A stretch of DNA of 32,000 bases. It comes from Vibrio vulnificus CMCP6. Lineage in GTDB: Bacteria; Pseudomonadota; Gammaproteobacteria; Enterobacterales; Vibrionaceae. The stretch spans positions 180,001 through 212,000 of the forward strand of contig NC_004460.2 in assembly GCF_000039765.1 (NCBI RefSeq), read 5' to 3'. The position numbers were made by a program, and so were the translations under genes. This document shows, piece after piece, positions 6,053-25,814 of the stretch (positions are counted from its first letter, which is position 1; every line of letters starts with the position of its first letter). The notes under the pieces are model-generated. The model did no database searches. It was given only the letters and a program-made list of their open reading frames with translations, and was not told the origin of the DNA.

Positions 6053-7285
6053 TTACGCCTTTTTCAGCTCTGCGACTTTCGCTTCTGAAAGTGGTTTCGT
6101 TACCAGTGCAAGCACAATACAAACGCCCATCATCACGGCTGAAATTGTGTAAGCCAAGGTGTAGCCTGTGCCGTTGGTCATAGAGAAACCAACCACTGCT
6201 GCACCAATCGCACCACCAATACCCCATGCTGTGTAAAGTACGCCATAGTTAGTGCCGTAGTTTTTCAGACCGTAGAATTCTGCGGTTAGAGTAGGGAAGA
6301 CCGCAAGAAGCGTACCGTAACCTACTGCTGCGATAGCCGTACCAATGATCAGAGTGAACTCAGATTGGAACGTTGCGAACAGAACCATGTTGATGCCCTG
6401 TAGAACGAACGCGAGAAGAAGCGTACGCACGCCGCCGATCTTGTCTGCAAGCATACCTGCTGCAACACGGCCGCCTGAGTTAAATACCGCAAGAATAGAC
6501 GCAAGGTAAACCGCGTTAGGCAGGTTTGCTTGAACGCTTGCGATGGTGGTGATGTTACCGATGATCATCAGGCCAACAGACGCTGCAAATGCGTACATGA
6601 TCCATAGTGCGTAGAACTGTGGCGTTTTAAGCATCGCTTTCCACGTCAGATCGTCAGATTTCTTCACCGCTTTAGGTGCTTGGCCTTTTTTTACTTTCGG
6701 CTCTGCTGGGGTGTAGTCTGCTGGTGGGTTATTGATGGTTGCCGCTAGAGGCACCGCGATAGCAAGAACACCAACACCAAGAATCATAAAACTGGTCTGA
6801 ATACCCATGTTCGTGATCAGAGCTGAAGTCAGTGGCGCTAGGTAGATCGTTGCAAGACCAAAACCTGCTGCGATGATGCCGTTAACCATGCCTTTCTTCG
6901 ATGCGTGGAACCACTTCATCGCCGATGGAGATAGACAAGCATAACCAAAACCGATACCCGCACCGGTGATCACACCAAACGTGATGTTGAGCATCAGTGG
7001 AGAGTCAACAAAACCAGATGCAATCATACTTAGACCTGTAAGAACAGTACTTAGGATAAGAATCATACGTGGACCCATGCGGTCTTGAAGAATACCAGCA
7101 ACAAGAAGACAAATAGAGAACGTGATCGTTGCGGTTGCGTAAGGGGCAGACGCTTCTGCAGCGCTCCAGCCTGACTCAGTCACTAGTGCTTTGTTGAATA
7201 CACTCCAAGCATACAGGATGCCAAGACAAAGGTTGATACAGAATCCTGCAAGCAGGATGCGCATAGCTTTATCAATCTTGCTCAT
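6053..7285 (-). CDS. MFS transporter, oxalate/formate antiporter (OFA)-like family
   Basis: Track ORF 6053..7318; probable start is MSKIDKAM (CAT at 7283-7285). Multiple hydrophobic helices; the N-terminus ILLAGFCINLCLGILYAWSVF is typical of OFA/L-lactate-type MFS. A central charged loop is present. Confidence 0.75.
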   Translation of the reverse strand: MSKIDKAMRILLAGFCINLCLGILYAWSVFNKALVTESGWSAAEASAPYATATITFSICLLVAGILQDRMGPRMILILSTVLTGLSMIASGFVDSPLMLNITFGVITGAGIGFGYACLSPSAMKWFHASKKGMVNGIIAAGFGLATIYLAPLTSALITNMGIQTSFMILGVGVLAIAVPLAATINNPPADYTPAEPKVKKGQAPKAVKKSDDLTWKAMLKTPQFYALWIMYAFAASVGLMIIGNITTIASVQANLPNAVYLASILAVFNSGGRVAAGMLADKIGGVRTLLLAFVLQGINMVLFATFQSEFTLIIGTAIAAVGYGTLLAVFPTLTAEFYGLKNYGTNYGVLYTAWGIGGAIGAAVVGFSMTNGTGYTLAYTISAVMMGVCIVLALVTKPLSEAKVAELKKA

Positions 7286-7860
7286 TTTTGTTCTCAGTGT
7301 TGCTTCTGGTAATACCAAAAGGGGGCGAATAAAAAGGTGGTTAAACTCAAAATTAGTTTGCGTTTTTCAACAGATAACGCAATGAGCGCGGATTATAACC
7401 AATCCTTTTGTGATTGGAATCTCTTTTTAAGGCCAGATCTGAAAATATTTTGATACGTTAAAAAAGTGTTGTTACAGAGTTTTCTGAATTAACGCTTGTT
7501 TGTGAAAATCTTGTGATCTTTGGATGTTGAGCGCTTATCTGGCGGGGCTTAGATATGCGGAAGAGAGTCGATATGGTACTGAGTTCACATTGCTAAAAAA
7601 AAGACAAAATATTTTCTGCTGTTAAATGAATGTAACAATCCTTTTCTAAATTTACACTTTTCTCTCGAAATGCCGTAGACAAAGGATTCTTAAAAATCAT
7701 TGTGTTAATCATATGTAAAATCAGTTGGTTTGATTAATGTTTGTACACATTTTGTACAGGTTTGGCCTCTTGATCTCTGAAACTAGTTTGGCAAAATATA
7801 GCGGAAACTGAGATTGCAATATTGAAAGGATGCTTTTTAGGCTTTTATAGCGAGGTGTAT

Positions 7861-8217
7861 ATGAAGATTTTCCTTATTCTACTGATATCTGTTACGGCGG
7901 GTTATGCCTCTGCTGACCACATCCACTCTTTCTTGTTTGGTCTCTATATTTCATCTCTGGCGGTAGGCAGTTGTTACTGGTTTGCATTCCGCAGCTCGCG
8001 TTTCCCTCAACTGGCGGTTTTCCTGTTGCTTTGCGGCATGCTGTCTAAGTTAGCAGTGACGGTTATCGGCGTATTTTGGGGACTATCGCAAGATTTGATT
8101 GGCTCGCCATTCATCTTCTCGCTTTCGTACTTGTTCTTCTCAATTGTGGTGACGTACCTATGGTTCAGTTACCGCCAGAAAAAAACCAAAGCGCCAGGGC
8201 AACGTCTTCCAGCCTAA
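7861..8217 (+). CDS. Small integral membrane protein (about 4 TM), function unknown
   Basis: Internal ATG (MKIFLILLISV...) of track ORF 7822..8217. The sequence is strongly hydrophobic with a basic tail (YRQKKTKAPGQR). A strong terminator follows. Confidence 0.45.
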   Translation: MKIFLILLISVTAGYASADHIHSFLFGLYISSLAVGSCYWFAFRSSRFPQLAVFLLLCGMLSKLAVTVIGVFWGLSQDLIGSPFIFSLSYLFFSIVVTYLWFSYRQKKTKAPGQRLPA

Positions 8218-8229
8218 TTGAACGAATTT

Positions 8230-8262
8230 AAAAAACGCCAGCAAGATTGCTGGCGTTTTTTT
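8230..8262 (+). terminator. Rho-independent terminator
   Basis: ACGCCAGCA-AGAT-TGCTGGCGT followed by T7. Confidence 0.75.
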
Positions 8263-8769
8263 AGGTTGCCATTTCAGCGTCATGCCATTTTTTGGCCAAG
8301 CTACTTGTCGTTTCAGCTAGGCAGTGGCGAGTTCATAGACTTTTAAACTCTTTAAAAAGGAAAAGCAGCAGAAATTTAATCAGAGAAATTTCTATCATTT
8401 TCGAATGATCGGAGTATAGTGCACATGGTTTTCAAACATGTGTTATTTATGAAATATATAGTTCAAGTCTATTCTTAGTTTTCTTTCGATTCCTTTCGTT
8501 ATATTACATCTGTAGTTACTTCTTCTTTATCTTCCATTAAATAGCCTCAGTTTTTATATCATAATAATTGATGGTTTATTGATATTAAACGATCGGTATA
8601 TTGCTGATTGTTATCATGTATTTTCATCTGGGCGTTTTGCGACTCACGATTTTGTGTTCTCTCGTTTTTATACGGTAGGGCGCTAGTTAGAGTTGAGTTT
8701 ATAAACAGTCTGTAGACGAAAATATATTTAAATTATGAGTTATTATGATGTTCGATGAAGGAAAAATAA

Positions 8770-8967
8770 ATGAGTAAAAAACGCGTAAAACATCATAATA
8801 AAAAAAGCGGTTATGAAACCAAGTTTGAACAAATGGTTAAAGAATACCATGAAGCTAAAGCGCTATTAGAATCCATGTCCAAGGGAAGTGAAGAATATAG
8901 CCAGCAAGAAAAACACTGTAATGCATTGTTTGCTTCTGCAGAGCGCTTTTTTAAACAAAATCAATAA
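8770..8967 (+). CDS. Small basic hypothetical protein (65 aa)
   Basis: ORF with AAGGAAAAA upstream of the ATG. Helical, Lys-rich sequence with no recognisable motif. It follows about 500 bp of AT-rich non-coding DNA. Confidence 0.35.
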   Translation: MSKKRVKHHNKKSGYETKFEQMVKEYHEAKALLESMSKGSEEYSQQEKHCNALFASAERFFKQNQ

Positions 8968-9047
8968 GCTTTCTTGCATCTTTGAGGTCATGATTGGCGG
9001 ATGTGCTGACAATCCTGTGACGCATTGACAGCACGCGATAAAAAACG

Positions 9048-9059
9048 AACCCAGCGGTT
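9048..9059. repeat. Left copy of the 12-bp target-site duplication (AACCCAGCGGTT) of the IS4-like element
   Basis: An identical 12-mer lies at 10488-10499, each immediately outside a terminal inverted repeat. Confidence 0.8.
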
Positions 9060-10487
9060 AATGCCGATCAGTTAAGAGATAAATGATCGGTTGAACGATC
9101 CTGCAGATGGCTTATAAAGGCTCTAAGTTTCTAAAACTTTGAGCCTTTTATTTTGCAATTAACTACAGCCCTAACACTCGCCAATCGTTATGCCCCCAAT
9201 ACTGAACAACTTGGAAAACTCAGTGACATTCTTTGCCCTGATTTCATCAACCAATGCTTAGAAGCTTCCGGTGTGGCCACTATTCGTAAACGTCGTATCC
9301 CTCTCGACATGGCCGTTTGGGCGGTCGTTGCTATGTCGCTTTACCGACAAGAGCCTTTGTGGTCAATTGTCTCCAAAGCGCAATTAATGTTGCCCGGGAA
9401 GCGAAGTCTGGTTGCCCCTAGTGCTATCGTTCAAGCGAGACAACGGCTCGGGGCTGATGCAATGAAAGAAGTATTTCATCAAAGCCAGAGCTTATGGAAT
9501 GAAACAGCTGACCATCCGACTTGGTGTGGATTAAAACTCCTCGCTGTCGATGGCGTGGTATGGCGAACGCCAGACACTAAGGAAAACCGTGATGCGTTTC
9601 AATCTGCGTCAAATCAGAATGGTGAAGGTAGCTTTCCTCAGGTGCGTATGGTTTGCCAGATGGAGTTGACCAGTCACATGCTGGTCGCCAGTGCTTTCGC
9701 GAGTTACAAAACCAATGAGATGATATTGGCAGAACAGCTGATTGAAACAACACCAGACTACAGCCTCACAATGTTCGACAGAGGTTTTTACTCTCTTAGC
9801 CTTCTTCATCGTTGGGCAAATACAGGTAATGAAAGGCATTGGCTAATGCCAATGCGCAAGAATACCCAATTTACTGAAGTTAGAAAGCTGGGTCGCAATG
9901 ATCGGATTGTCGAACTCAAGACAACGCCTCAAGCGAGAAAGAAGTCCCTGTCACTACCTGAAACCATCGAAGTTCGCCTGATAAAGAAAACTATCAAAGG
10001 GAAAGAAGTGAGTATCTTGACCTCGATGACTGATCATCGTCGTTATCCGCCAGCGGAAATAGCAGAGCTTTACAGTCATAGATGGGAAATCGAAGTGGGA
10101 TATCGTGAAATGAAGTCTTCACTTCTGAACAACGAGTTCACACTGAGAAGTAAGAAGCCAGAGATGGTAAAACAAGAACTATGGGGCTTATTGCTTAGCT
10201 ATAACATTATTAGATATCAGATGGTTAACATGGCTAAAGCTGTGCCTGGCATCTACCCCAACCAACTGAGCTTCACAACGTGTGCTCACTCTATCATTCA
10301 CGTAATTTTGGGGTTCTGGTTGGAGTCAGCGGGAACAATCCCTAAGCGCATTACTCACTTGCAAGAGGAGGCGATACACCATGTCTTGTCCATTAAACGA
10401 GAAGAGCGGATATATCCGAGAGCAATAAAACCAAAGGCAAAGAAATACCCCAATAAAAAAAGCCAGTCAGCTTAACTGACTGGCATT
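9060..10487 (+). mobile_element. IS4-family insertion sequence (IS4-like, 1,428 bp), apparently intact
   Basis: Terminal inverted repeats are AATGCCGATCAGTTAAG (9060-9076) and the reverse complement of 10471-10487, AATGCCAGTCAGTTAAG (15/17 match). It contains a single transposase ORF and is flanked by a 12-bp direct repeat. Confidence 0.85.
9153..10475 (+). CDS. IS4 family DDE transposase
   Basis: 440 aa with a TTG start. As far as I recall the E. coli IS4 transposase, the two are collinear (..[13 protein letters not shown].., ..[13 protein letters not shown].., ..LTSMTD..). The Y-x2-R-x3-E-x6-K signature is visible as [15 protein letters not shown]. The stop codon lies inside the right IR. 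Confidence 0.9.
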
Positions 10488-17427: not shown

Positions 17428-17467
17428 AACAAAAGGCGATCCATTGAGTTCGCCTTTTGTTTTTTCG
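17428..17467 (+). terminator. Rho-independent terminator
   Basis: AAAAGGCGA-(loop)-TCGCCTTTT followed by GTTTTTT. Confidence 0.75.
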
Positions 17468-21413: not shown

Positions 21414-21745
21414 GAATGACTCACAAAGCTATTGGGTACTTGGCATAGTAAGCGAGTTTGGGAAGATAGGCTAGGGAGGGGCGCTTAGTCTGGCGAATTC
21501 GTACTCGGCTTTAAATCGAAGCTGCATTAAGTATCTCTGAGAGTACCGATTCGTGAAATAGGTCATTCTTTTTAATTATTAAAGGTGAGTTAAAATGAAC
21601 TGCATTGAAATTAAATTAAAAACAGCTAGTTAGATTCAATGTTTGTATCGCATCATGCCGTTTTTTTTCATAGCTTCATGCCGTATCTATTCCTTGAATG
21701 TGCACGGTCAGCTATACTGCGGTTATTGTACGTAAGGAGGTTCAA

Positions 21746-22150
21746 ATGACAGCAGTAGACCGCATTTATCAAAAGATAAAGCGTTCAAGACGTTATGTAT
21801 TTGAACGCAAAGACTTTGACGGATTTGCAAGTTACGACCAAATAGGTCGGGCATTGAGGCAGCTTGTACAGCAAGGGGAGCTAATGAAGCTTGGCTATGG
21901 TTTGTATACCAAAGCAAGAATCAATAGCCTCACTGGTAAGCCTATGCCTACCAATCCAGGTGGTACCGATGCTCTTGTGCGTGAAATTCTTAAAATGAAA
22001 GGCGTTGATTTTGAAATGGATAGTCTATCGCAACAAAGTCTTTCAGGTGCGAGTACCCAAATTCCATCCTCTGTTCACTATTCATGGAACCCAAAACAGT
22101 TTAATCGCAAACTGGTGGTTGGTAGCCGTGTGCTGAACTTGCCAAGTTAG
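21746..22150 (+). CDS. AbiEi-like (type IV TA antitoxin / wHTH, DUF6088-like) protein
   Basis: The ATG at 21746 has a strong AAGGAGG RBS (track ORF 21698..22150). The N-terminus IYQKIKRSRRYVFERKDF...IGRALRQLVQQGELMKLGYGLY resembles AbiEi antitoxin wHTH domains. Its stop is 1 nt from the start of the AbiEii-like ORF. Confidence 0.65.
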   Translation: MTAVDRIYQKIKRSRRYVFERKDFDGFASYDQIGRALRQLVQQGELMKLGYGLYTKARINSLTGKPMPTNPGGTDALVREILKMKGVDFEMDSLSQQSLSGASTQIPSSVHYSWNPKQFNRKLVVGSRVLNLPS

Positions 22151-22151
22151 T

Positions 22152-22550
22152 ATGAACGCACTAAAACAACAATTTCTTGAGGTTTCCGACGCGCTTGAGC
22201 TCGGAAATCCTGCCATCATTGAAAAAGATTTCTGGGTCGTCGCCTTACTTGCCGAGCTAGCAAAAGTTTCTCCTGAATATCATCAAATGGTCTTTTCCGG
22301 CGGCACGGCGTTGGCGAAATCAAACGTTAAAATTCTAAGAATGTCGGAAGATGTGGATATAAAACTCATCCCCAACCAAGCGTTTGATGAACTGAGTCGA
22401 GCAAAAAAGAAAGGCGTTAGAAAGGCATGGGTTAACGAGATTGAACAGGCGATCATTCATTCAGAACGATTTACCGTTGAAACGCGATCTGTGCGAGATG
22501 AGTACCGTTACGTTGAGTTTGAACTCAGATATCCGCAACAGTTTAGTTAA
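22152..22550 (+). pseudogene. AbiEii/AbiGii-family nucleotidyltransferase toxin, truncated
   Basis: FSGGTALAKS...RMSEDVDIKL is the family's NTase motif region. The ORF ends after 132 aa at an in-frame TAA, whereas family members are roughly twice that length by my recollection. The same frame continues past the TAA as APCLRPIIKLELIETIPLL, then stops again at a TGA. Confidence 0.6.
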
Positions 22551-22752
22551 GCGCCCTGTCTTCGGCCCATTATTAAGTTAGAGTTAATCGAAACTATTCC
22601 ATTACTCAATACTAGTGCATGGTCTTCTCAACGCACCTCAACTACATGATTGGCTCGTTGACCGCCACAATGATGCAGTAACTCGCAGAATTTTTATTGC
22701 GGCTTTGATGCCGCAATAAGCTCTACTTGTACTAACTTAAATCATTTCACTG

Positions 22753-22962
22753 TTACGCATATGAAATCGTTCTTGAAAACGGTGGATATTTTTCAGTAGC
22801 GTCTTTGATTGTAAATGTCCGAACCAAATTCCCTTCTAAGTCATACTCTTCGTATGTTTCGTAGTCGGTATCAAGTCTTCCTTTGTCCTTTGATTCAGAC
22901 TTTATGAGCCTGTACTCGTGGTCAGGATTTAGTCGAAGTTCCTTTATGTATTCATCATTCAT
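22753..22962 (-). CDS. Small acidic hypothetical protein (69 aa), apparently co-transcribed with the deaminase gene
   Basis: GAGGA RBS lies about 8 nt upstream of the ATG, and the ORF starts 57 nt downstream of the deaminase stop on the same strand. 16 D/E versus 11 K/R residues. No motif recognised. Confidence 0.5.
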   Translation of the reverse strand: MNDEYIKELRLNPDHEYRLIKSESKDKGRLDTDYETYEEYDLEGNLVRTFTIKDATEKYPPFSRTISYA

Positions 22963-23019
22963 TTTGCAGTCCTCGGATTTAAGAGATCTATGCCTAGTGA
23001 CACGTTAAATACTTGAATG

Positions 23020-24888
23020 TTATTTAGCAGGATCTTGTAATGTTTTCTGATGTGATTTTTGAACTGTACCTAATTGATTTTTAAGTTTCTCCAACTCTTT
23101 TTCTAGGGCTTTAGCCTTGTGTTCTAAGGAATTAGCCTTAAGTATCAGCTCTTTATTTTCTTCTACTAATATCTTTTTCTGGTTTGGGACATTTAGTTGC
23201 AGGCCTATTTCTAGTTCGTCTTTGTAAGGGATGATCGGCTCGAATAATTGCTGATAGGCTCTACCTATAGCCCCTGAGAAAAGCTTCAGTTTAGGCGTAT
23301 CGACACCACAATTAATTATGTGGTCATTTGCCACGCCAGGGTATGGATCTATGAAGATTACACTATCAATTTTCAACTGATACGCTTTTTTTGCGCAGAG
23401 TTCACATGGGCTAGCTGTAGTGTATAAATATCCATGTTTTACTGGCATCCCACCATACTTAGATACTTGAAGAAAAGCGTTCTCTTCGGCATGAAGAGCT
23501 CTTGTATGAACTTGGTTTTTTTCTCCATCGATAGAGTTTTTAATGTCTTTAAAGCAGTAGGACACTGGTTTTCCACGGAATGATTTGTTGATGGATTCGG
23601 TAAATGAATAAATGTTTCCGAGGCTTGTTCTGAACTTAGTGTTTTCTCGTTCAAAAAGGCTAAATGCAGACTCGTCTTCATTAGTCAATAAGTCTTCCGC
23701 TCTTCGTAAATTACATGGGGTTTGACCTTGAGCCACATTGTTCCAACCAACAGCTTTAATTGACTTGTCTGAATCTGTAACTACAGCGCCAACTTGGCGA
23801 GAAAGACAACCTGAGTTTAGTTTTGCATTGTAAGCAATCTGCATGCAGCGCTCATCTTGAGAAGGCGTAACTAGGCCTGGATGCATTATCAGAGATATAT
23901 ACTTAATGAGTTGCCGTTTGAGGGATTTCAACTTGTAGTTGTCATCTGGGTTGTAGAGATGGATGTCTGAAATTTCAATACACCTTTGGAGGTCTAGAGA
24001 CCAAAAACGATCTTCACCTTTCAATGAATCAGGGTTTTCTCTTGAATCAATGGCCTTAATATCTTCCTTGGAAATGCTTGATTCTGATAGTAACCTGTTG
24101 ATTCGCTTGTCATTTTCAGTGGTTACTGAAAGCAAATAGAACGCAGAGTATCTTTCTCTGAAAAAAAATGCTTCGTAAGGGTTTCGGATTGCATCCAAAA
24201 CTACACAGACATTTTCCCCGTCGCTCTTTGACTTATGTCTTAATACCTTGATCAGTTTGTTGACTCTTTGCGAGAACATATAGATTTTACTAGAGTCGTA
24301 ATCATCTGATTCGGCAGTGCCAGACTTTCTGATGTTATTGCCTACTATCTGATAAAACTTGGTAAATGAACCTGGTTGAATTCTATGAAGGATTTTTCTT
24401 AGTTTATCTGTAAATTCGGGTAACTCATTGAAGTAAAAATCATAAATATCTTTGTTATATAGGTTGTCCTTATACTTCTCAGCATGTTTTTTAGCACTGT
24501 CTCTTTTGTTGTAATACTCGGTGTAGCATTGTTCGAGCTTTACATCTAGAGATTTACTATTTGTTCCAAGCTCTTTATCTAGCGTTGCCTTATAAAGCTC
24601 GTCAAAATCTTTAAATGGTAACTCTAATAAAAAGGTCGATACGACGTCACTCATTCTAATGTGGTGGAACTTACACCAATGTTCAGATAGGTAGTTATAT
24701 ACAATTCTATATTTTCTTTCTTCGTCATTAGGAAACGCTGCTTGATGCGGCTTTGGCGGGTTGAGTTCGGAGAAAGTATTGTGTTTCAGTAACTTTGAAA
24801 GAGTTGTACACCCAGAACCAGTTCTTCCAGTAAGCCCTAGTATTATGAACTTGGCGCGCTCTTTGTAGATTGTCTCTAGACCAGTCAT
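23020..24888 (-). CDS. avcD: P-loop nucleotide-kinase-like + dCMP/cytidine deaminase fusion protein (AvcD/DcdV-like, defensive dCTP-deaminase architecture) with a C-terminal coiled coil
   Basis: 622 aa. N-terminal P-loop GLTGRTGSGCTT (aa 18-29). The deaminase domain has SRQVGAVV (aa 363-370), zinc motifs HAEENA (aa 466-471) and PCELC (aa 494-498). Heptad-like KALEKELEKLKNQL lies at aa 590-606. The gene is very AT-rich compared with flanking core genes. Confidence 0.85.
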   Translation of the reverse strand: MTGLETIYKERAKFIILGLTGRTGSGCTTLSKLLKHNTFSELNPPKPHQAAFPNDEERKYRIVYNYLSEHWCKFHHIRMSDVVSTFLLELPFKDFDELYKATLDKELGTNSKSLDVKLEQCYTEYYNKRDSAKKHAEKYKDNLYNKDIYDFYFNELPEFTDKLRKILHRIQPGSFTKFYQIVGNNIRKSGTAESDDYDSSKIYMFSQRVNKLIKVLRHKSKSDGENVCVVLDAIRNPYEAFFFRERYSAFYLLSVTTENDKRINRLLSESSISKEDIKAIDSRENPDSLKGEDRFWSLDLQRCIEISDIHLYNPDDNYKLKSLKRQLIKYISLIMHPGLVTPSQDERCMQIAYNAKLNSGCLSRQVGAVVTDSDKSIKAVGWNNVAQGQTPCNLRRAEDLLTNEDESAFSLFERENTKFRTSLGNIYSFTESINKSFRGKPVSYCFKDIKNSIDGEKNQVHTRALHAEENAFLQVSKYGGMPVKHGYLYTTASPCELCAKKAYQLKIDSVIFIDPYPGVANDHIINCGVDTPKLKLFSGAIGRAYQQLFEPIIPYKDELEIGLQLNVPNQKKILVEENKELILKANSLEHKAKALEKELEKLKNQLGTVQKSHQKTLQDPAK

Positions 24889-24969
24889 TGTTTTAATTAT
24901 CCTATCAGAATCAAACTTCTACACTTTTTCAATATCGGAAAGTGTATCGTATGCAATTAATTGTTTAAC

Positions 24970-24999
24970 ATTATACTGATTAGGGTCTTTACTCAACAA
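24970..24999 (-). promoter_or_regulatory. Putative sigma70 promoter of the deaminase gene
   Basis: On the minus strand, TATAAT lies at 24975-24970, with TTGAGT (24996-24991, 15-nt spacer) or TTGTTG (24999-24994, 18-nt spacer) upstream. This would give a 5' UTR of about 75-80 nt containing the 24920-24946 hairpin. Confidence 0.3.
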
Positions 25000-25195
25000 A
25001 TTGCACTGTATTGGTGATGCAAAGCACAGTGACCAATATATTTGAAGGTATTTTTAAAGAAGGTCGTGATGAGCTAAGTCTGGTGATTGGAAACACGATG
25101 TGTGAATAATTCAGAAAATAACCGATTGTGTAAGCTGTAAGCTAAAAAAGGGCGTCGCGTTTTCGAGTTAACCATCAGAGCTTACTAAACCACAC

Positions 25196-25222
25196 AAAGG
25201 CCAACCAATCGGTTCGCCTTTG
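25196..25222. repeat. Degenerate second copy of the gcvP terminator sequence
   Basis: AAAGGCCAACCAATCGGTTCGCCTTTG here versus AAAGGCGAACCCATCGGTTCGCCTTTG at 25788-25814 (25/27 identical, same orientation). Confidence 0.7.
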
Positions 25223-25247
25223 CTAGTAAGTACATTGTGTCACTAAG

Positions 25248-25433
25248 TTATGCTGCTATCTCATTTAGCTCGTAGTTACCTTCGTAGTTTTTCATTTCTT
25301 CGAGGACTTCATCAGCGGAAACAAAGAAGAACTCTTTCCTACCATTAACAAGGTTGACTCTTTGTTCGGCAAACTTTGTGTGCAAGAATCGTTCAAATGT
25401 TGGTGCATCCTCAGTATGGAACACATCAAGGGG
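25248..25433 (-). pseudogene. 3' fragment of a T5orf172/GIY-YIG-like (MUG113-type) gene, 5'-truncated
   Basis: My minus-strand translation gives PLDVFHTEDAPTFERFLHTKFAEQRVNLVNGRKEFFFVSADEVLEEMKNYEGNYELNEIAA*. It has no start codon and is bounded upstream by an in-frame TAA. The lE..lH..F...R....g..EfF pattern is typical of the C-terminal end of T5orf172 domains. Confidence 0.45.
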
Positions 25434-25729
25434 TTAAAGGCTTAGAGTTTGATCGTGTTATGGCAATTATGGACGATAACAGTGCAAATGGATTCCTGTT
25501 CCTCTATGAAAAACTATTTGGTGCTCAAGAGTTATCCCAGACGGATATACGAAATCAATCAGAAGGCAAAGACTCTGTTCTATCAAGAACTAGAAGGTTG
25601 TTTTATGTGATATGTAGTAGGGCAGAAAAGAGTTTAGCTATCGTTGCATATACCAAAGATCCCAAAGTTGTAAAGAGGAAGAGTTTAGAGTCTGGCTGGT
25701 TTACTCAAGATGAAATTGAAATGATGTAG
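25376..25729 (+). pseudogene. 3' fragment of a UvrD/PcrA-like superfamily-1 helicase (C-terminal domain only)
   Basis: The 117-aa track ORF starts at a TTG. THQGVKGLEFDRVM and RRLFYVICSRAEKSLAIV correspond to late SF1 helicase C-terminal motifs (T.H..KGLEFd.V ; r.LlYVa.TRA...L). No ATPase N-terminal domains are present anywhere upstream. Confidence 0.6.
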
Positions 25730-25785: not shown

Positions 25786-25814
25786 AAAAAGGCGAACCCA
25801 TCGGTTCGCCTTTG
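25786..25814 (-). terminator. Rho-independent terminator of gcvP
   Basis: AAAGGCGAACC-CATC-GGTTCGCCTTT. On the minus strand it is followed by a T run, about 20 nt after the gcvP stop. Confidence 0.8.

What the first reader, a model, noticed from the sequence alone, without database searches (positions are those of the whole stretch)
22753..24888. AvcD/dCTP-deaminase-type kinase-deaminase fusion with atypical features and an unassigned co-transcribed 69-aa acidic ORF
The 622-aa protein fuses an N-terminal P-loop nucleotide-kinase-like domain to a zinc dCMP/cytidine deaminase (SRQVGAVV, HAE at aa 466-468, PCELC at aa 494-498). This is the architecture of V. cholerae AvcD (DcdV) and of the defensive dCTP deaminases, which block phage replication by depleting dC nucleotides. 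Three things in this copy are not explained by that precedent. (a) The P-loop reads G-R-T-G-S-G-C-T-T, with Cys where the Walker-A Lys is expected. (b) A C-terminal extension of about 55 aa has coiled-coil character (KAKALEKELEKLKNQL). (c) A 69-aa net-acidic ORF with its own GAGGA RBS starts 57 nt downstream on the same strand. AvcD is described as controlled by a small RNA antitoxin (AvcI), not a protein. The small protein could therefore be a protein-type inhibitor or antitoxin, an adaptor or sensor, or a co-effector. That would make this a two-gene variant of nucleotide-depletion defence. The pair is the only fully intact unit in a decaying defence islet, which argues that it is under selection.
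Basis: partly seen in the sequence, partly recalled or inferred. Interest (0 to 1): 0.9.

Follow-up and report, generated by a model that had tools for sequence, protein, structure and literature searches.

The report
Anti-phage dCTP deaminase with hitchhiker gene
This is an ordinary member of a known family of bacterial anti-virus enzymes that destroy a DNA building block; the small gene after it is real but uncharacterised, and its relatives mostly live in dormant viruses, not beside this enzyme.

Summary
Both ORFs exist exactly as described. The 622-aa protein belongs to the anti-phage dCTP deaminase (AvcD/DcdV) family (PADLOC dCTPase E=2.3e-140).

Two of the three "atypical" features are normal for the family:
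- The Walker-A Cys (G-S-G-C-T) is present in 119 of 120 homologues. It is the C30 that Tal et al. mutated together with G29 in E. coli AW1.7; those mutations abolished defence.
- The coiled-coil tail occurs in 46 of 68 anchored homologues.

The 69-aa ORF is a real gene (dN/dS 0.015-0.05) and is probably co-transcribed. It follows the deaminase only in one Vibrionaceae lineage (deaminases at least 81% identical). It is absent beside relatives 39-74% identical, including AW1.7.

It belongs to an unannotated family of ~70-aa beta-sheet proteins (99 clusters). These mostly sit divergent from terS in temperate prophages. They also occur in P1-like phage-plasmids, an integron cassette and type I R-M operons. 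None of 42 viral contigs had a deaminase nearby, and there was no overlap in 5,426 E. coli genomes.

Its synonymous divergence is 4.5 times that of the adjacent deaminase core, so the cassette is a recombinant mosaic.

Verdict: known defence gene plus a captured phage-type small gene. A two-gene system is not supported, though not excluded for this clade.

The parts
23020..24888 (-). Anti-phage dCTP deaminase (AvcD/DcdV family), 622 aa, long-tail subfamily
   Evidence: PADLOC dCTPase 2.3e-140. NCBIfam NF041025 scores 385.8 bits against a cut-off of 400. Pfam dCMP_cyt_deam_1 1.7e-16. 44% identical to the validated E. coli AW1.7 enzyme. Core dN/dS 0.047.
24802..24828 (-). P-loop G-R-T-G-S-G-C-T-T (aa 21-29), with Cys27 at the Walker-A Lys position
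   Evidence: Present in 119 of 120 homologues and 16 of 16 loci. Corresponds to G29/C30 of AW1.7, whose mutation abolishes defence.
23353..23862 (-). Zinc deaminase domain (aa 343-512) with HAE 466-468 and PCELC 494-498
   Evidence: The E-to-C spacing of 27 residues equals that reported for DcdV (E384 to C411).
23023..23220 (-). Fast-evolving C-terminal coiled-coil tail (aa 557-622)
   Evidence: Heptad pattern 8 of 8. dN/dS 0.44 against 0.047 for the core. The identity change-point is at 23218. A tail is present in 46 of 68 homologues.
22963..23019 (-). 57-nt spacer with a GAGGA ribosome-binding site; no terminator or promoter detected
   Evidence: z=0.00. Only the last 31 nt are conserved with Photobacterium L003.
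22753..22962 (-). 69-aa acidic protein, member of an unannotated family of ~70-aa proteins (short helix plus four beta strands) carried mainly by temperate phages
   Evidence: dN/dS 0.015-0.05. Family of 57 representatives and 99 clusters. AF2 pLDDT 90.4. No hit in Pfam, PADLOC, NCBIfam or PHROGs. No structural neighbour at E<=0.001.
22685..22726 (-). Strong hairpin after the small ORF (10-bp G+C-rich inner stem, no canonical U-tract); likely 3' end of the transcript
   Evidence: -20 kcal/mol, z=-4.08, 0 of 200 shuffles fold as well. It lies inside the imported segment.
24889..25247 (-). 359-nt non-coding region upstream of the deaminase; the position where AvcI/DifV lies in V. cholerae
   Evidence: AvcI position. 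Here no Rfam hit was found, folding z-scores are -0.27 and -1.67, and there is no covariation support.
25004..25031 (-). Conserved 7-bp palindrome CACTGTG...TACAGTG flanking an invariant ATCACCAAT
   Evidence: Conserved in the divergent L003 and L019 loci. Found only in loci that also carry the small ORF: 10 loci, and none of the other 79.
24970..24996 (-). Promoter-like TTGAGT, 15-nt spacer, TATAAT, about 80 nt upstream of the ATG
   Evidence: Read from the sequence. The TTGA is conserved in L003 and L019. The scan tool does not report it because the spacer is 15 nt.
22613..25416 (.). Imported 2.8-kb segment, 92% identical to the cargo of Tn7-like elements in V. parahaemolyticus-type genomes
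   Evidence: Its ends coincide with the truncation points of AbiEii and GajB.
25248..25424 (-). 3' fragment of a SNIPE/T5orf172 (PD-Lambda-1-like) gene, carried in with the segment
   Evidence: PADLOC PD-Lambda-1 1.3e-15, model positions 404-460 of 491. The intact 411-aa gene lies upstream of the deaminase in L026-L028.
25376..25729 (+). C-terminal fragment of GajB (Gabija helicase), remnant of the earlier islet
   Evidence: PADLOC GajB 2e-51, model positions 520-624 of 625.
21698..22550 (+). Intact AbiEi (21698-22150) and truncated AbiEii (22152-22550), remnant of the earlier islet
   Evidence: PADLOC AbiEi 1.8e-54 (full model) and AbiEii 1.5e-55 (model positions 1-130 of 307).

Best explanation
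The 622-aa gene is a standard 'long-tail' member of the anti-phage dCTP deaminase (AvcD/DcdV) family. By analogy with characterised relatives (inferred, not shown here), the enzyme is held inactive in uninfected cells by a labile inhibitor. In V. cholerae that inhibitor is an RNA made from the region immediately 5' of the gene. When a phage shuts off host transcription the inhibitor decays. The enzyme then converts dCTP and dCMP to dUTP and dUMP, which starves phage DNA replication.

The 69-aa gene is a real, strongly constrained gene. It is most likely transcribed on the same mRNA. It is not a dedicated partner of the deaminase. It belongs to an unannotated family of ~70-aa beta-sheet proteins whose usual home is temperate phages, where it lies on the opposite strand immediately upstream of terS. 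One copy was captured behind the deaminase in a single Vibrionaceae cassette lineage carried as Tn7-like cargo, and has been co-inherited since.

My commitment is that the small protein acts autonomously, as a moron-type accessory binding protein serving the mobile element. It is not an antitoxin, adaptor or co-effector of the deaminase.
For: Deaminase membership. The P-loop Cys is family-wide and functionally required in AW1.7. Tails are common in the family. The core is under strong purifying selection (dN/dS 0.047).

The small ORF is a real gene: 21 synonymous against 2 non-synonymous differences between the window and L001. In L003 homology resumes 31 nt upstream of the small ORF and ends at its stop codon.

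Operon layout: RBS, unstructured spacer, hairpin only after the small ORF.

Not a general partner:
- It is absent downstream of deaminases 74%, 69%, 69% and 39-46% identical, including the validated AW1.7, which defends when cloned with only its own promoter region.
- A 67%-identical copy stands alone in Vibrio sp. VNB-15.
- The family has 57 representatives and 99 clusters, found in lambdoid prophages divergent from terS, P1-like phage-plasmids, an integron cassette, type I R-M operons, and Aeromonas and Pseudomonas islets.
- 0 of 42 viral contigs have a deaminase within 5 kb, and only 1 of 26 metagenome loci does; that one belongs to the same clade.
- In E. coli, 16 genomes carry the small gene and 44 carry a deaminase, with no overlap.
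- Its recurrent neighbours are unrelated to each other.
- Its dS is 4.5 times that of the deaminase core in the same genome pair (Fisher p=2e-6). The change-point is at the core/tail boundary. The two genes therefore have separable histories.
Against: Within its clade the pair has stayed adjacent and co-oriented in at least four different flanking contexts: a Wadjet-like operon, SIR2, AbiE remnants and others. This holds at divergences where dS is saturated and the spacer is no longer alignable. No promoter of its own is conserved, so the small gene depends on the deaminase transcript.

The more diverged 3' block contains both the fast-evolving tail and the small ORF. That could mean the two co-evolve.

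The family has a second stable home inside a defence operon, between DUF2188 and hsdM in a type I R-M locus. This hints at a defence-related role.

No physical-interaction test could be run. The function of the small protein remains inferred from context only.
Confidence: 0.66

Rival explanations
1. Two-gene variant of nucleotide-depletion defence. In this Vibrionaceae lineage the 69-aa protein has been recruited as a protein-level regulator of the deaminase: an inhibitor or antitoxin, an adaptor or sensor, or a stabiliser. It might act through the coiled-coil tail.
For: Adjacency and co-orientation persist across at least four flanking contexts and deep divergence. The layout is operon-like, with no promoter of its own conserved. 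Purifying selection is strong. The tail and the small ORF lie together in the more diverged 3' block. In DcdV, mutations that escape the RNA inhibitor include K511E and Q514R near the C-terminus, so the C-terminal region can be regulatory.
Against: Sister deaminases with the same kind of tail (L004, L024, L025; 69-74% identical) lack the small ORF. Validated family members work without it. The family is overwhelmingly unlinked to deaminases. E. coli carriers have no deaminase at all. A 67%-identical Vibrio copy stands alone. The dS discordance shows the two genes can be exchanged independently. The small gene is 57-93 nt from the deaminase, so linkage alone explains the co-inheritance.
Confidence: 0.18
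2. The small protein is a phage-derived counter-defence or exclusion factor that benefits whichever mobile element carries it. It might be a small-ligand or protein 'sponge', or an inhibitor of a host system. Its position behind the deaminase would then be incidental cargo stacking in a Tn7-like element. This is a more specific version of the best explanation.
For: Its main home is temperate phages, in a position and orientation typical of lysogeny-expressed morons. It is small, acidic and has no known domain. It has near-invariant polar residues (D31, D33, H15, S55, S57, Y59) on a curved beta sheet. It is also carried by phage-plasmids, an integron cassette and an R-M operon with a Bro-N gene.
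Against: No homology or fold match to any known anti-defence protein. No expression or phenotype data. The 'sponge' idea rests only on size and conserved polar residues.
Confidence: 0.3
3. The deaminase in this window is itself on the way to decay or is inactive, like its neighbours. The apparent intactness would then reflect only recent arrival.
For: The segment is a recent import flanked by fragments. A relative carries a single nonsense mutation in some samples (L021, L022). The NCBIfam score is just under the curated cut-off.
Against: The ORF is full length and all catalytic and P-loop motifs are intact. Core dN/dS is 0.047 against relatives. The upstream promoter-like region is conserved.
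Confidence: 0.07

Closest known systems
E. coli AW1.7 anti-phage dCTP deaminase (Tal et al.; preprint 10.1101/2021.04.26.441389)
   Same: N-terminal kinase-like domain with GLTGRTGSGCTT. C-terminal zinc deaminase with SRQVGAVV, HAE and PCELC. 44% identity over nearly the full length. Located in a mobile or defence context. The G29A and C30A mutations show the Cys-containing P-loop is required.
   Different: AW1.7 is 576 aa and ends ~7 residues after KDEL, with no coiled-coil tail. It has no family member of the 69-aa protein downstream. The window protein carries extra insertions: 543 residues match a 437-position profile.
V. cholerae AvcID (DcdV-DifV) type III-like toxin-antitoxin defence system (10.1101/2021.03.31.437871; PMC10511110)
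   Same: P-loop kinase-like plus dCMP-deaminase architecture. The spacing of the catalytic Glu and the zinc Cys is identical. A several-hundred-nt non-coding region lies immediately 5' of the gene. Vibrio mobile-island context.
   Different: No AvcI-like RNA could be demonstrated here: no Rfam family, no folding signal, no covariation. AvcI homologues share no sequence, so this is undecided. I did not have the DcdV sequence, so direct identity was not measured. AvcID has no downstream protein gene described.
Unannotated ORF of Cronobacter phage phiES15 (NC_018454, 16773-16988) and equivalent ORFs in E. coli and Enterobacter lambdoid prophages
   Same: Same protein family as the 69-aa ORF (45-49% identity; shared G.D.D.Y...G..V...D.T..YPPF.R pattern) and similar length.
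   Different: These are stand-alone genes on the opposite strand, 22-23 nt from the terS start codon, between the lysis cassette and the terminase genes. No deaminase is nearby or elsewhere in the genome.
Lysogeny-expressed prophage 'morons' at the lysis-terminase junction, such as lambda bor (from my own knowledge, not tested)
   Same: Position and opposite-strand orientation of the phage-borne family members.
   Different: No sequence or structural relationship. The proteins here are soluble and acidic, not lipoproteins.

Membership tests
Anti-phage dCTP deaminase (AvcD/DcdV; PADLOC dCTPase; NCBIfam NF041025) | N-terminal P-loop kinase-like domain with the family motif G-R-T-G-[SA]-G-C-[ST] | tested here: met
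   aa 21-29 GRTGSGCTT. Same motif in 119 of 120 homologues and in AW1.7.
Anti-phage dCTP deaminase (AvcD/DcdV; PADLOC dCTPase; NCBIfam NF041025) | C-terminal zinc-dependent deaminase with HAE and PCxxC | tested here: met
   Pfam PF00383 1.7e-16. HAE 466-468 and PCELC 494-498. Aligns to T4 dCMP deaminase 1vq2.
Anti-phage dCTP deaminase (AvcD/DcdV; PADLOC dCTPase; NCBIfam NF041025) | Full-length match to the curated family profiles | tested here: inconclusive
   PADLOC dCTPase 2.3e-140 over residues 5-606. The NCBIfam equivalog covers its full profile but scores 385.8 bits, just under the 400-bit cut-off. Close relatives are named 'anti-phage dCTP deaminase' by their sources.
Anti-phage dCTP deaminase (AvcD/DcdV; PADLOC dCTPase; NCBIfam NF041025) | Location among defence genes or on a mobile element | tested here: met
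   Flanked by AbiE, Gabija and PD-Lambda-1 remnants. The source cassette is Tn7-like cargo next to SNIPE and Mks/Wadjet-like genes.
Anti-phage dCTP deaminase (AvcD/DcdV; PADLOC dCTPase; NCBIfam NF041025) | Deamination of dCTP/dCMP and protection from phage | not testable with these tools
   Needs expression, nucleotide-pool measurement and plaque assays.
AvcID type III-like toxin-antitoxin system | Inhibitory non-coding RNA encoded immediately 5' of the deaminase and co-transcribed with it | tested here: inconclusive
   A 359-nt non-coding region is present, and its proximal ~160 nt is conserved in divergent loci. No Rfam hit. Folding z-scores are -0.27 and -1.67, and there is no covariation. 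AvcI homologues share no sequence, so absence of similarity says nothing.
   It is present only beside deaminases at least 81% identical. It is absent beside relatives 39-74% identical. 0 of 42 viral loci and 1 of 26 metagenome loci of the small-protein family have a deaminase. The overlap in E. coli genomes is 0.
   dN/dS 0.015-0.05. RBS present, no terminator in the spacer, hairpin after the ORF. Translation itself was not measured.
Protein (type II-like) antitoxin | The antitoxin always accompanies its toxin and has a recognisable neutralising or DNA-binding fold | tested here: not met
   The deaminase occurs widely without it, and it occurs widely without the deaminase. No HTH, RHH or other known domain. 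The fold is unmatched.
Unnamed ~70-aa small-protein family (alignments A2, A3) | Length 67-97 aa; near-invariant D31, D33, P60, P61; pattern G.D.D.Y.Y.E.D..G..V..[YF].[IV].D.T..YPPF.R | tested here: met
   The window protein seeds the family. Profile hits are full length, with E down to 9e-20 for non-clade members. Conservation is shown.

The most novel reading that the evidence does not exclude
A small phage protein has been domesticated by a defence cassette. The ~70-aa family would be a phage-borne binder or inhibitor aimed at nucleotide-depletion or other defences. In the Vibrionaceae Tn7-cargo lineage a captured copy would now act as a protein-level brake or sensor on the dCTP deaminase. 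It might act through the fast-evolving coiled-coil tail that shares the same recombination block, working alongside or replacing the RNA antitoxin.
Probability: 0.12. Interest if true: 0.7.

Novelty: new member of a known kind. Interest (0 to 1): 0.3.

Why it matters
The deaminase adds nothing new. It is one more long-tail member of a characterised defence family, and the features flagged as odd are family norms.

Two things are worth keeping:
- The 69-aa ORF exposes a widespread family that no library annotates (Pfam, NCBIfam, PADLOC, PHROGs). Its members recur at the lysis-terminase junction of temperate phages and inside two different defence operons. That makes it a reasonable candidate for screens of defence-modulating or anti-defence proteins.
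- The C-terminal coiled-coil tail is the fastest-evolving part of these deaminases and marks a recombination boundary. That makes it a candidate regulatory or phage-facing surface.

If the minority reading were true, with the small protein regulating the deaminase, it would be an example of a defence system borrowing a phage protein as its own brake.

Tried and rejected
- Pfam, PADLOC, NCBIfam and PHROGs on the 69-aa protein and eight divergent family members: no hit.
- A word-based homologue search found only 3 relatives. The exhaustive profile search was needed to see the family.
- Long repeat proteins in the profile search (P0147, P0148, P0158, P0171, P0173) match only on 'YD..GN.V'-like repeats. 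I rejected them as spurious.
- Search for an AvcI-like RNA: Rfam at gathering and at E<=1, single-sequence folds, and an alignment fold. All gave no signal.
- The search for related loci with the broad alignments failed on metagenomes because no stretch was conserved enough. A narrower alignment worked.
- I tested whether the small protein's recurrent neighbours (DUF2188, a 77-aa cassette partner, 72- and 82-aa prophage ORFs, a 233-aa Aeromonas protein) form one partner family. They are unrelated.
- I considered that the hairpin after the PD-Lambda-1 fragment and the gcvP terminator mark a target-site duplication. I rejected this because the same palindrome occurs elsewhere in the window and in L019, so it is a dispersed REP-like element.
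- P0009 could not be located on a contig.
Full report
**1. Observation**

A GAGGA lies 7 nt before the second ATG. The motif positions are exact: GRTGSGCTT at aa 21-29, SRQVGAVV at 363-370, HAE at 466-468, PCELC at 494-498, and KAKALEKELEKLKNQL at 591-606.

The small protein has 16 acidic and 11 basic residues, with pI 4.77. The tail shows a perfect a/d heptad pattern over four heptads, matched by only 13 of 2000 shuffles. The spacer is unstructured (z=0.00). A strong hairpin follows the small ORF (-20 kcal/mol, z=-4.08, 0 of 200 shuffles).

The neighbours are gene fragments: AbiEii covers 130 of 307 model positions, GajB is the last 105 residues, and PD-Lambda-1 is the last ~57 residues. AbiEi, however, is intact.

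**2. The large protein is an ordinary family member**

It matches the PADLOC dCTPase model at 2.3e-140. It matches the whole NCBIfam 'anti-phage dCTP deaminase' equivalog at 385.8 bits, just below the 400-bit cut-off. Pfam finds the zinc deaminase domain. The only solved relatives by sequence are phage-type dCMP deaminases, covering the catalytic domain only.

The database holds 4,856 homologues at E<=1e-10. It is 44% identical to the E. coli AW1.7 enzyme, whose anti-phage activity and dCTP depletion were shown experimentally.

**3. Feature (a), the Walker-A Cys**

The motif G-R-T-G-[SA]-G-C-[ST] is present in all 16 related loci that retain an N-terminus, from Vibrio to Bacillota, Nitrospirae and Thermodesulfobacteriota. 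It is also present in 119 of 120 database homologues; the one exception is N-terminally truncated.

AW1.7 reads GLTGRTGSG29C30TT. Tal et al. report that G29A and C30A mutations in this 'predicted nucleotide-binding motif' abolished defence and dCTP depletion. The Cys is therefore a known, tested hallmark of the family, not a peculiarity of this copy.

**4. Feature (b), the tail**

Of the 68 homologues that could be anchored on the conserved G[KR][AGS]Y..L[YF][EDT] motif, 46 carry 40 or more residues after it. These tails have a shared [VI]PN.KK.L motif followed by an E/K/L-rich heptad segment, and occur down to about 46% identity. The other 22, like AW1.7, end within about 30 residues of the anchor. 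A Nitrospirae copy has such a tail, and a Bacillota copy has a different ~250-aa extension.

The tail is a common subfamily trait. It does evolve quickly: dN/dS is 0.44 against 0.047 for the core, and it is no longer alignable between the window and Photobacterium.

**5. Feature (c), the 69-aa ORF is real**

Between the window and L001 it differs at 21 synonymous and 2 non-synonymous sites. dN/dS is 0.015-0.05 for all pairs where dS is not saturated. In Photobacterium L003, nucleotide homology to the window is lost across the tail and most of the spacer. It resumes 31 nt upstream of the small ORF and stops at its stop codon.

There is no conserved promoter of its own and no terminator in the spacer, and a hairpin follows the ORF. 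Co-transcription with the deaminase is therefore the most likely arrangement. This is inferred, not shown.

**6. It is not a general partner of the deaminase**

The ORF follows the deaminase only in one lineage whose deaminases are at least 81% identical. That lineage comprises the window, V. barjaei, Vibrio sp. Of14-4, V. parahaemolyticus-type genomes, Photobacterium chitinilyticum, the L019 group and one metagenome contig.

It is absent after:
- the 74%-identical Agarivorans copy;
- the 69%-identical V. ruber and P. damselae copies;
- all relatives 39-46% identical, including AW1.7.

A 67%-identical copy in Vibrio sp. VNB-15 has no deaminase next to it.

**7. What the small protein is**

A word-based search found three relatives. 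An exhaustive profile search found 57 representatives, mostly full-length matches to 67-97-aa proteins. A second search found 99 clusters in Escherichia, Enterobacter, Klebsiella, Cronobacter, Acinetobacter, Aeromonas, Pseudomonas, Pantoea and Vibrio. All are 'hypothetical' and none has a Pfam domain.

D31, D33, P60 and P61 are near-invariant. With 58 sequences, AF2 gives a confident model (pLDDT 90.4) of a short helix and a four-stranded sheet. It has no significant structural neighbour. No member hits Pfam, PADLOC, NCBIfam or PHROGs.

**8. Where the family lives**

- In E. coli and Enterobacter it is a lone opposite-strand gene between the lysis cassette and terS of lambdoid prophages, starting 22-23 nt from the terS start codon.
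- The same position holds in the isolated Cronobacter phage phiES15, where it is unannotated.
- It occurs on P1-like phage-plasmids of Citrobacter.
- In a V. parahaemolyticus integron array (14-17 attC-like repeats) it shares a cassette with an overlapping 77-aa ORF.
- In Acinetobacter and 18 metagenome contigs it lies in the operon DUF2188, small gene, hsdM, Bro-N, hsdS, hsdR.
- It also sits in small islets in Aeromonas and Pseudomonas.

Of 42 IMG/VR contigs encoding a member, none has a dCTP deaminase within 5 kb. Fifteen have the 22-23-nt divergent terS arrangement, and seven more have terminase-like genes 1-2.7 kb upstream.

Of 26 metagenome loci, one (same Vibrio clade) has the deaminase, six are terS-type, 18 are the R-M type, and one has none of these neighbours.

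In 5,426 complete E. coli genomes, 16 carry the small gene and 44 carry a dCTP deaminase, with no genome in common. Its recurrent neighbours are unrelated to one another.

**9. Origin of the cassette and mosaicism**

Window 22613-25416 is 92% identical to the cargo of Tn7-like elements (TniQ/TnsD). There the deaminase and small ORF are preceded by two intact SNIPE/T5orf172 genes and followed by a convergent Mks/Wadjet-like operon.

The ends of this segment coincide with the truncation of AbiEii and of GajB. The 'decaying islet' is therefore best explained by one replacement event inside an older AbiE-Gabija islet.

Within the segment, identity to L026 drops from 96% to 83% at coordinate ~23218. 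This is the core/tail boundary. The small ORF's dS (0.81) is 4.5 times that of the deaminase core (0.18; Fisher p=2e-6), while its dN/dS stays at 0.015. The two genes therefore have different histories even inside the clade.

**10. The upstream region**

In V. cholerae the RNA antitoxin is 152-174 nt long, lies immediately 5' of the gene in the same orientation, and is co-transcribed. Its homologues share no sequence.

Here the 359-nt upstream region has no Rfam match, no significant folding signal (z=-0.27 and -1.67) and no covariation.

The proximal ~160 nt is nevertheless conserved in otherwise diverged loci. It contains a 7-bp palindrome around an invariant ATCACCAAT and a TTGAGT-N15-TATAAT promoter-like site. 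This element occurs only in the loci that also carry the small ORF, which is as expected for one cassette lineage. Whether it encodes an AvcI equivalent is undecided.

**11. Mechanism and verdict**

Shown:
- family membership with intact motifs and selection on the deaminase;
- reality of, and selection on, the small gene;
- its narrow linkage to the deaminase and its broad, deaminase-free distribution;
- the mosaic structure of the cassette.

Inferred:
- the deaminase works like AW1.7 and AvcD, with activation on transcription shut-off followed by depletion of dC nucleotides;
- the two genes are co-transcribed;
- the small protein acts autonomously as a phage-type accessory protein.

I put 0.66 on this reading and 0.18 on a true regulatory partnership restricted to this clade. 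No paper in the searchable library reports a protein partner for dCTP deaminases.

The finding is a new member of a known kind. Its one useful by-product is the recognition of an unannotated small-protein family shared by temperate phages and defence operons.

Noticed in passing
window 22613-25416: A sharply bounded 2.8-kb segment, 92% identical to Tn7-like transposon cargo in V. parahaemolyticus-type genomes (L026-L028, L001). It has replaced the middle of an older AbiE-Gabija islet, and its two ends coincide with the truncation points of AbiEii and GajB.
   Followed up: yes
window 22613-23218 versus 23219-24888: Recombinant mosaic. Identity to L026 drops from 96% to 83% at the deaminase core/tail boundary. 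The small ORF has dS 0.81 against 0.18 for the deaminase core (p=2e-6). The tail has dN/dS 0.44.
   Followed up: yes
window 25196-25221, 25788-25813, 17439-17457; also L019 9937-9981: A dispersed REP-like palindrome, AAAGGCGAACC(N)GGTTCGCCTTT. It serves as the hairpin after gcvP and after the PD-Lambda-1 fragment. There are 5 matches in the window against 0.02 expected by chance.
   Followed up: partly
window 25004-25031 and 24970-24996: A conserved palindrome around an invariant ATCACCAAT, just upstream of a TTGAGT-N15-TATAAT promoter-like site. It could be an operator or the start of a leader RNA. It occurs only in the cassette lineage that carries the small ORF.
   Followed up: partly
L029-L037, L046, L048-L064 (prophages and phage phiES15): In prophages the small-protein gene starts 22-23 nt from the terS start codon on the opposite strand. 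The first 25 codons of terS are 100% conserved even where the rest of terS is only 62-80% identical. This would fit a promoter or regulatory element for the small gene inside the 5' end of terS.
   Followed up: partly
L038-L040, L097-L114: A highly conserved Acinetobacter-type operon: hsdS fragment, DUF2188 (PADLOC candidate PDC-S16), small-protein family member, hsdM, Bro-N protein, hsdS, hsdR. DUF2188 ends ~10 nt before the small gene.
   Followed up: partly
L041 4860-5597: In a V. parahaemolyticus integron cassette array (14-17 attC-like repeats) one cassette holds a family member (80 aa) and a 77-aa ORF of unknown function that overlaps it by 4 nt.
   Followed up: partly
L021 and L022 (position 1158 of L021): A single C-to-T nonsense mutation at codon 269 of the 609-aa deaminase in two sequencing runs. 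The small ORF downstream is intact and identical.
   Followed up: yes
L024 about 2900-2990: The Agarivorans deaminase (74% identical, no small ORF) is preceded by a long perfect hairpin (AAGAGGAAAAATCCCTTGTTTAAACAAGGAATTTTTCCTCTT) just upstream of its start. This could be a candidate regulatory RNA element.
   Followed up: no
L011 3953-6394: A Bacillota homologue of the deaminase is 813 aa, with a ~250-aa extra C-terminal domain in place of the coiled-coil tail.
   Followed up: no
L025 5124-5993: In Photobacterium damselae the deaminase is followed on the same strand by a 289-aa protein matching the PADLOC candidate defence family PDC-S42 (3e-45).
   Followed up: no
window 23020-24888: The deaminase matches PHROG 8118 (unknown function) at 8.8e-155, so the family is also carried by phages or prophages.
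   Followed up: no
window 7000-10475: A low-GC patch (0.37-0.39) contains a 131-aa ORF with no Pfam hit (7822-8217). Next to it is an IS4-family transposase (9153-10475).
   Followed up: no
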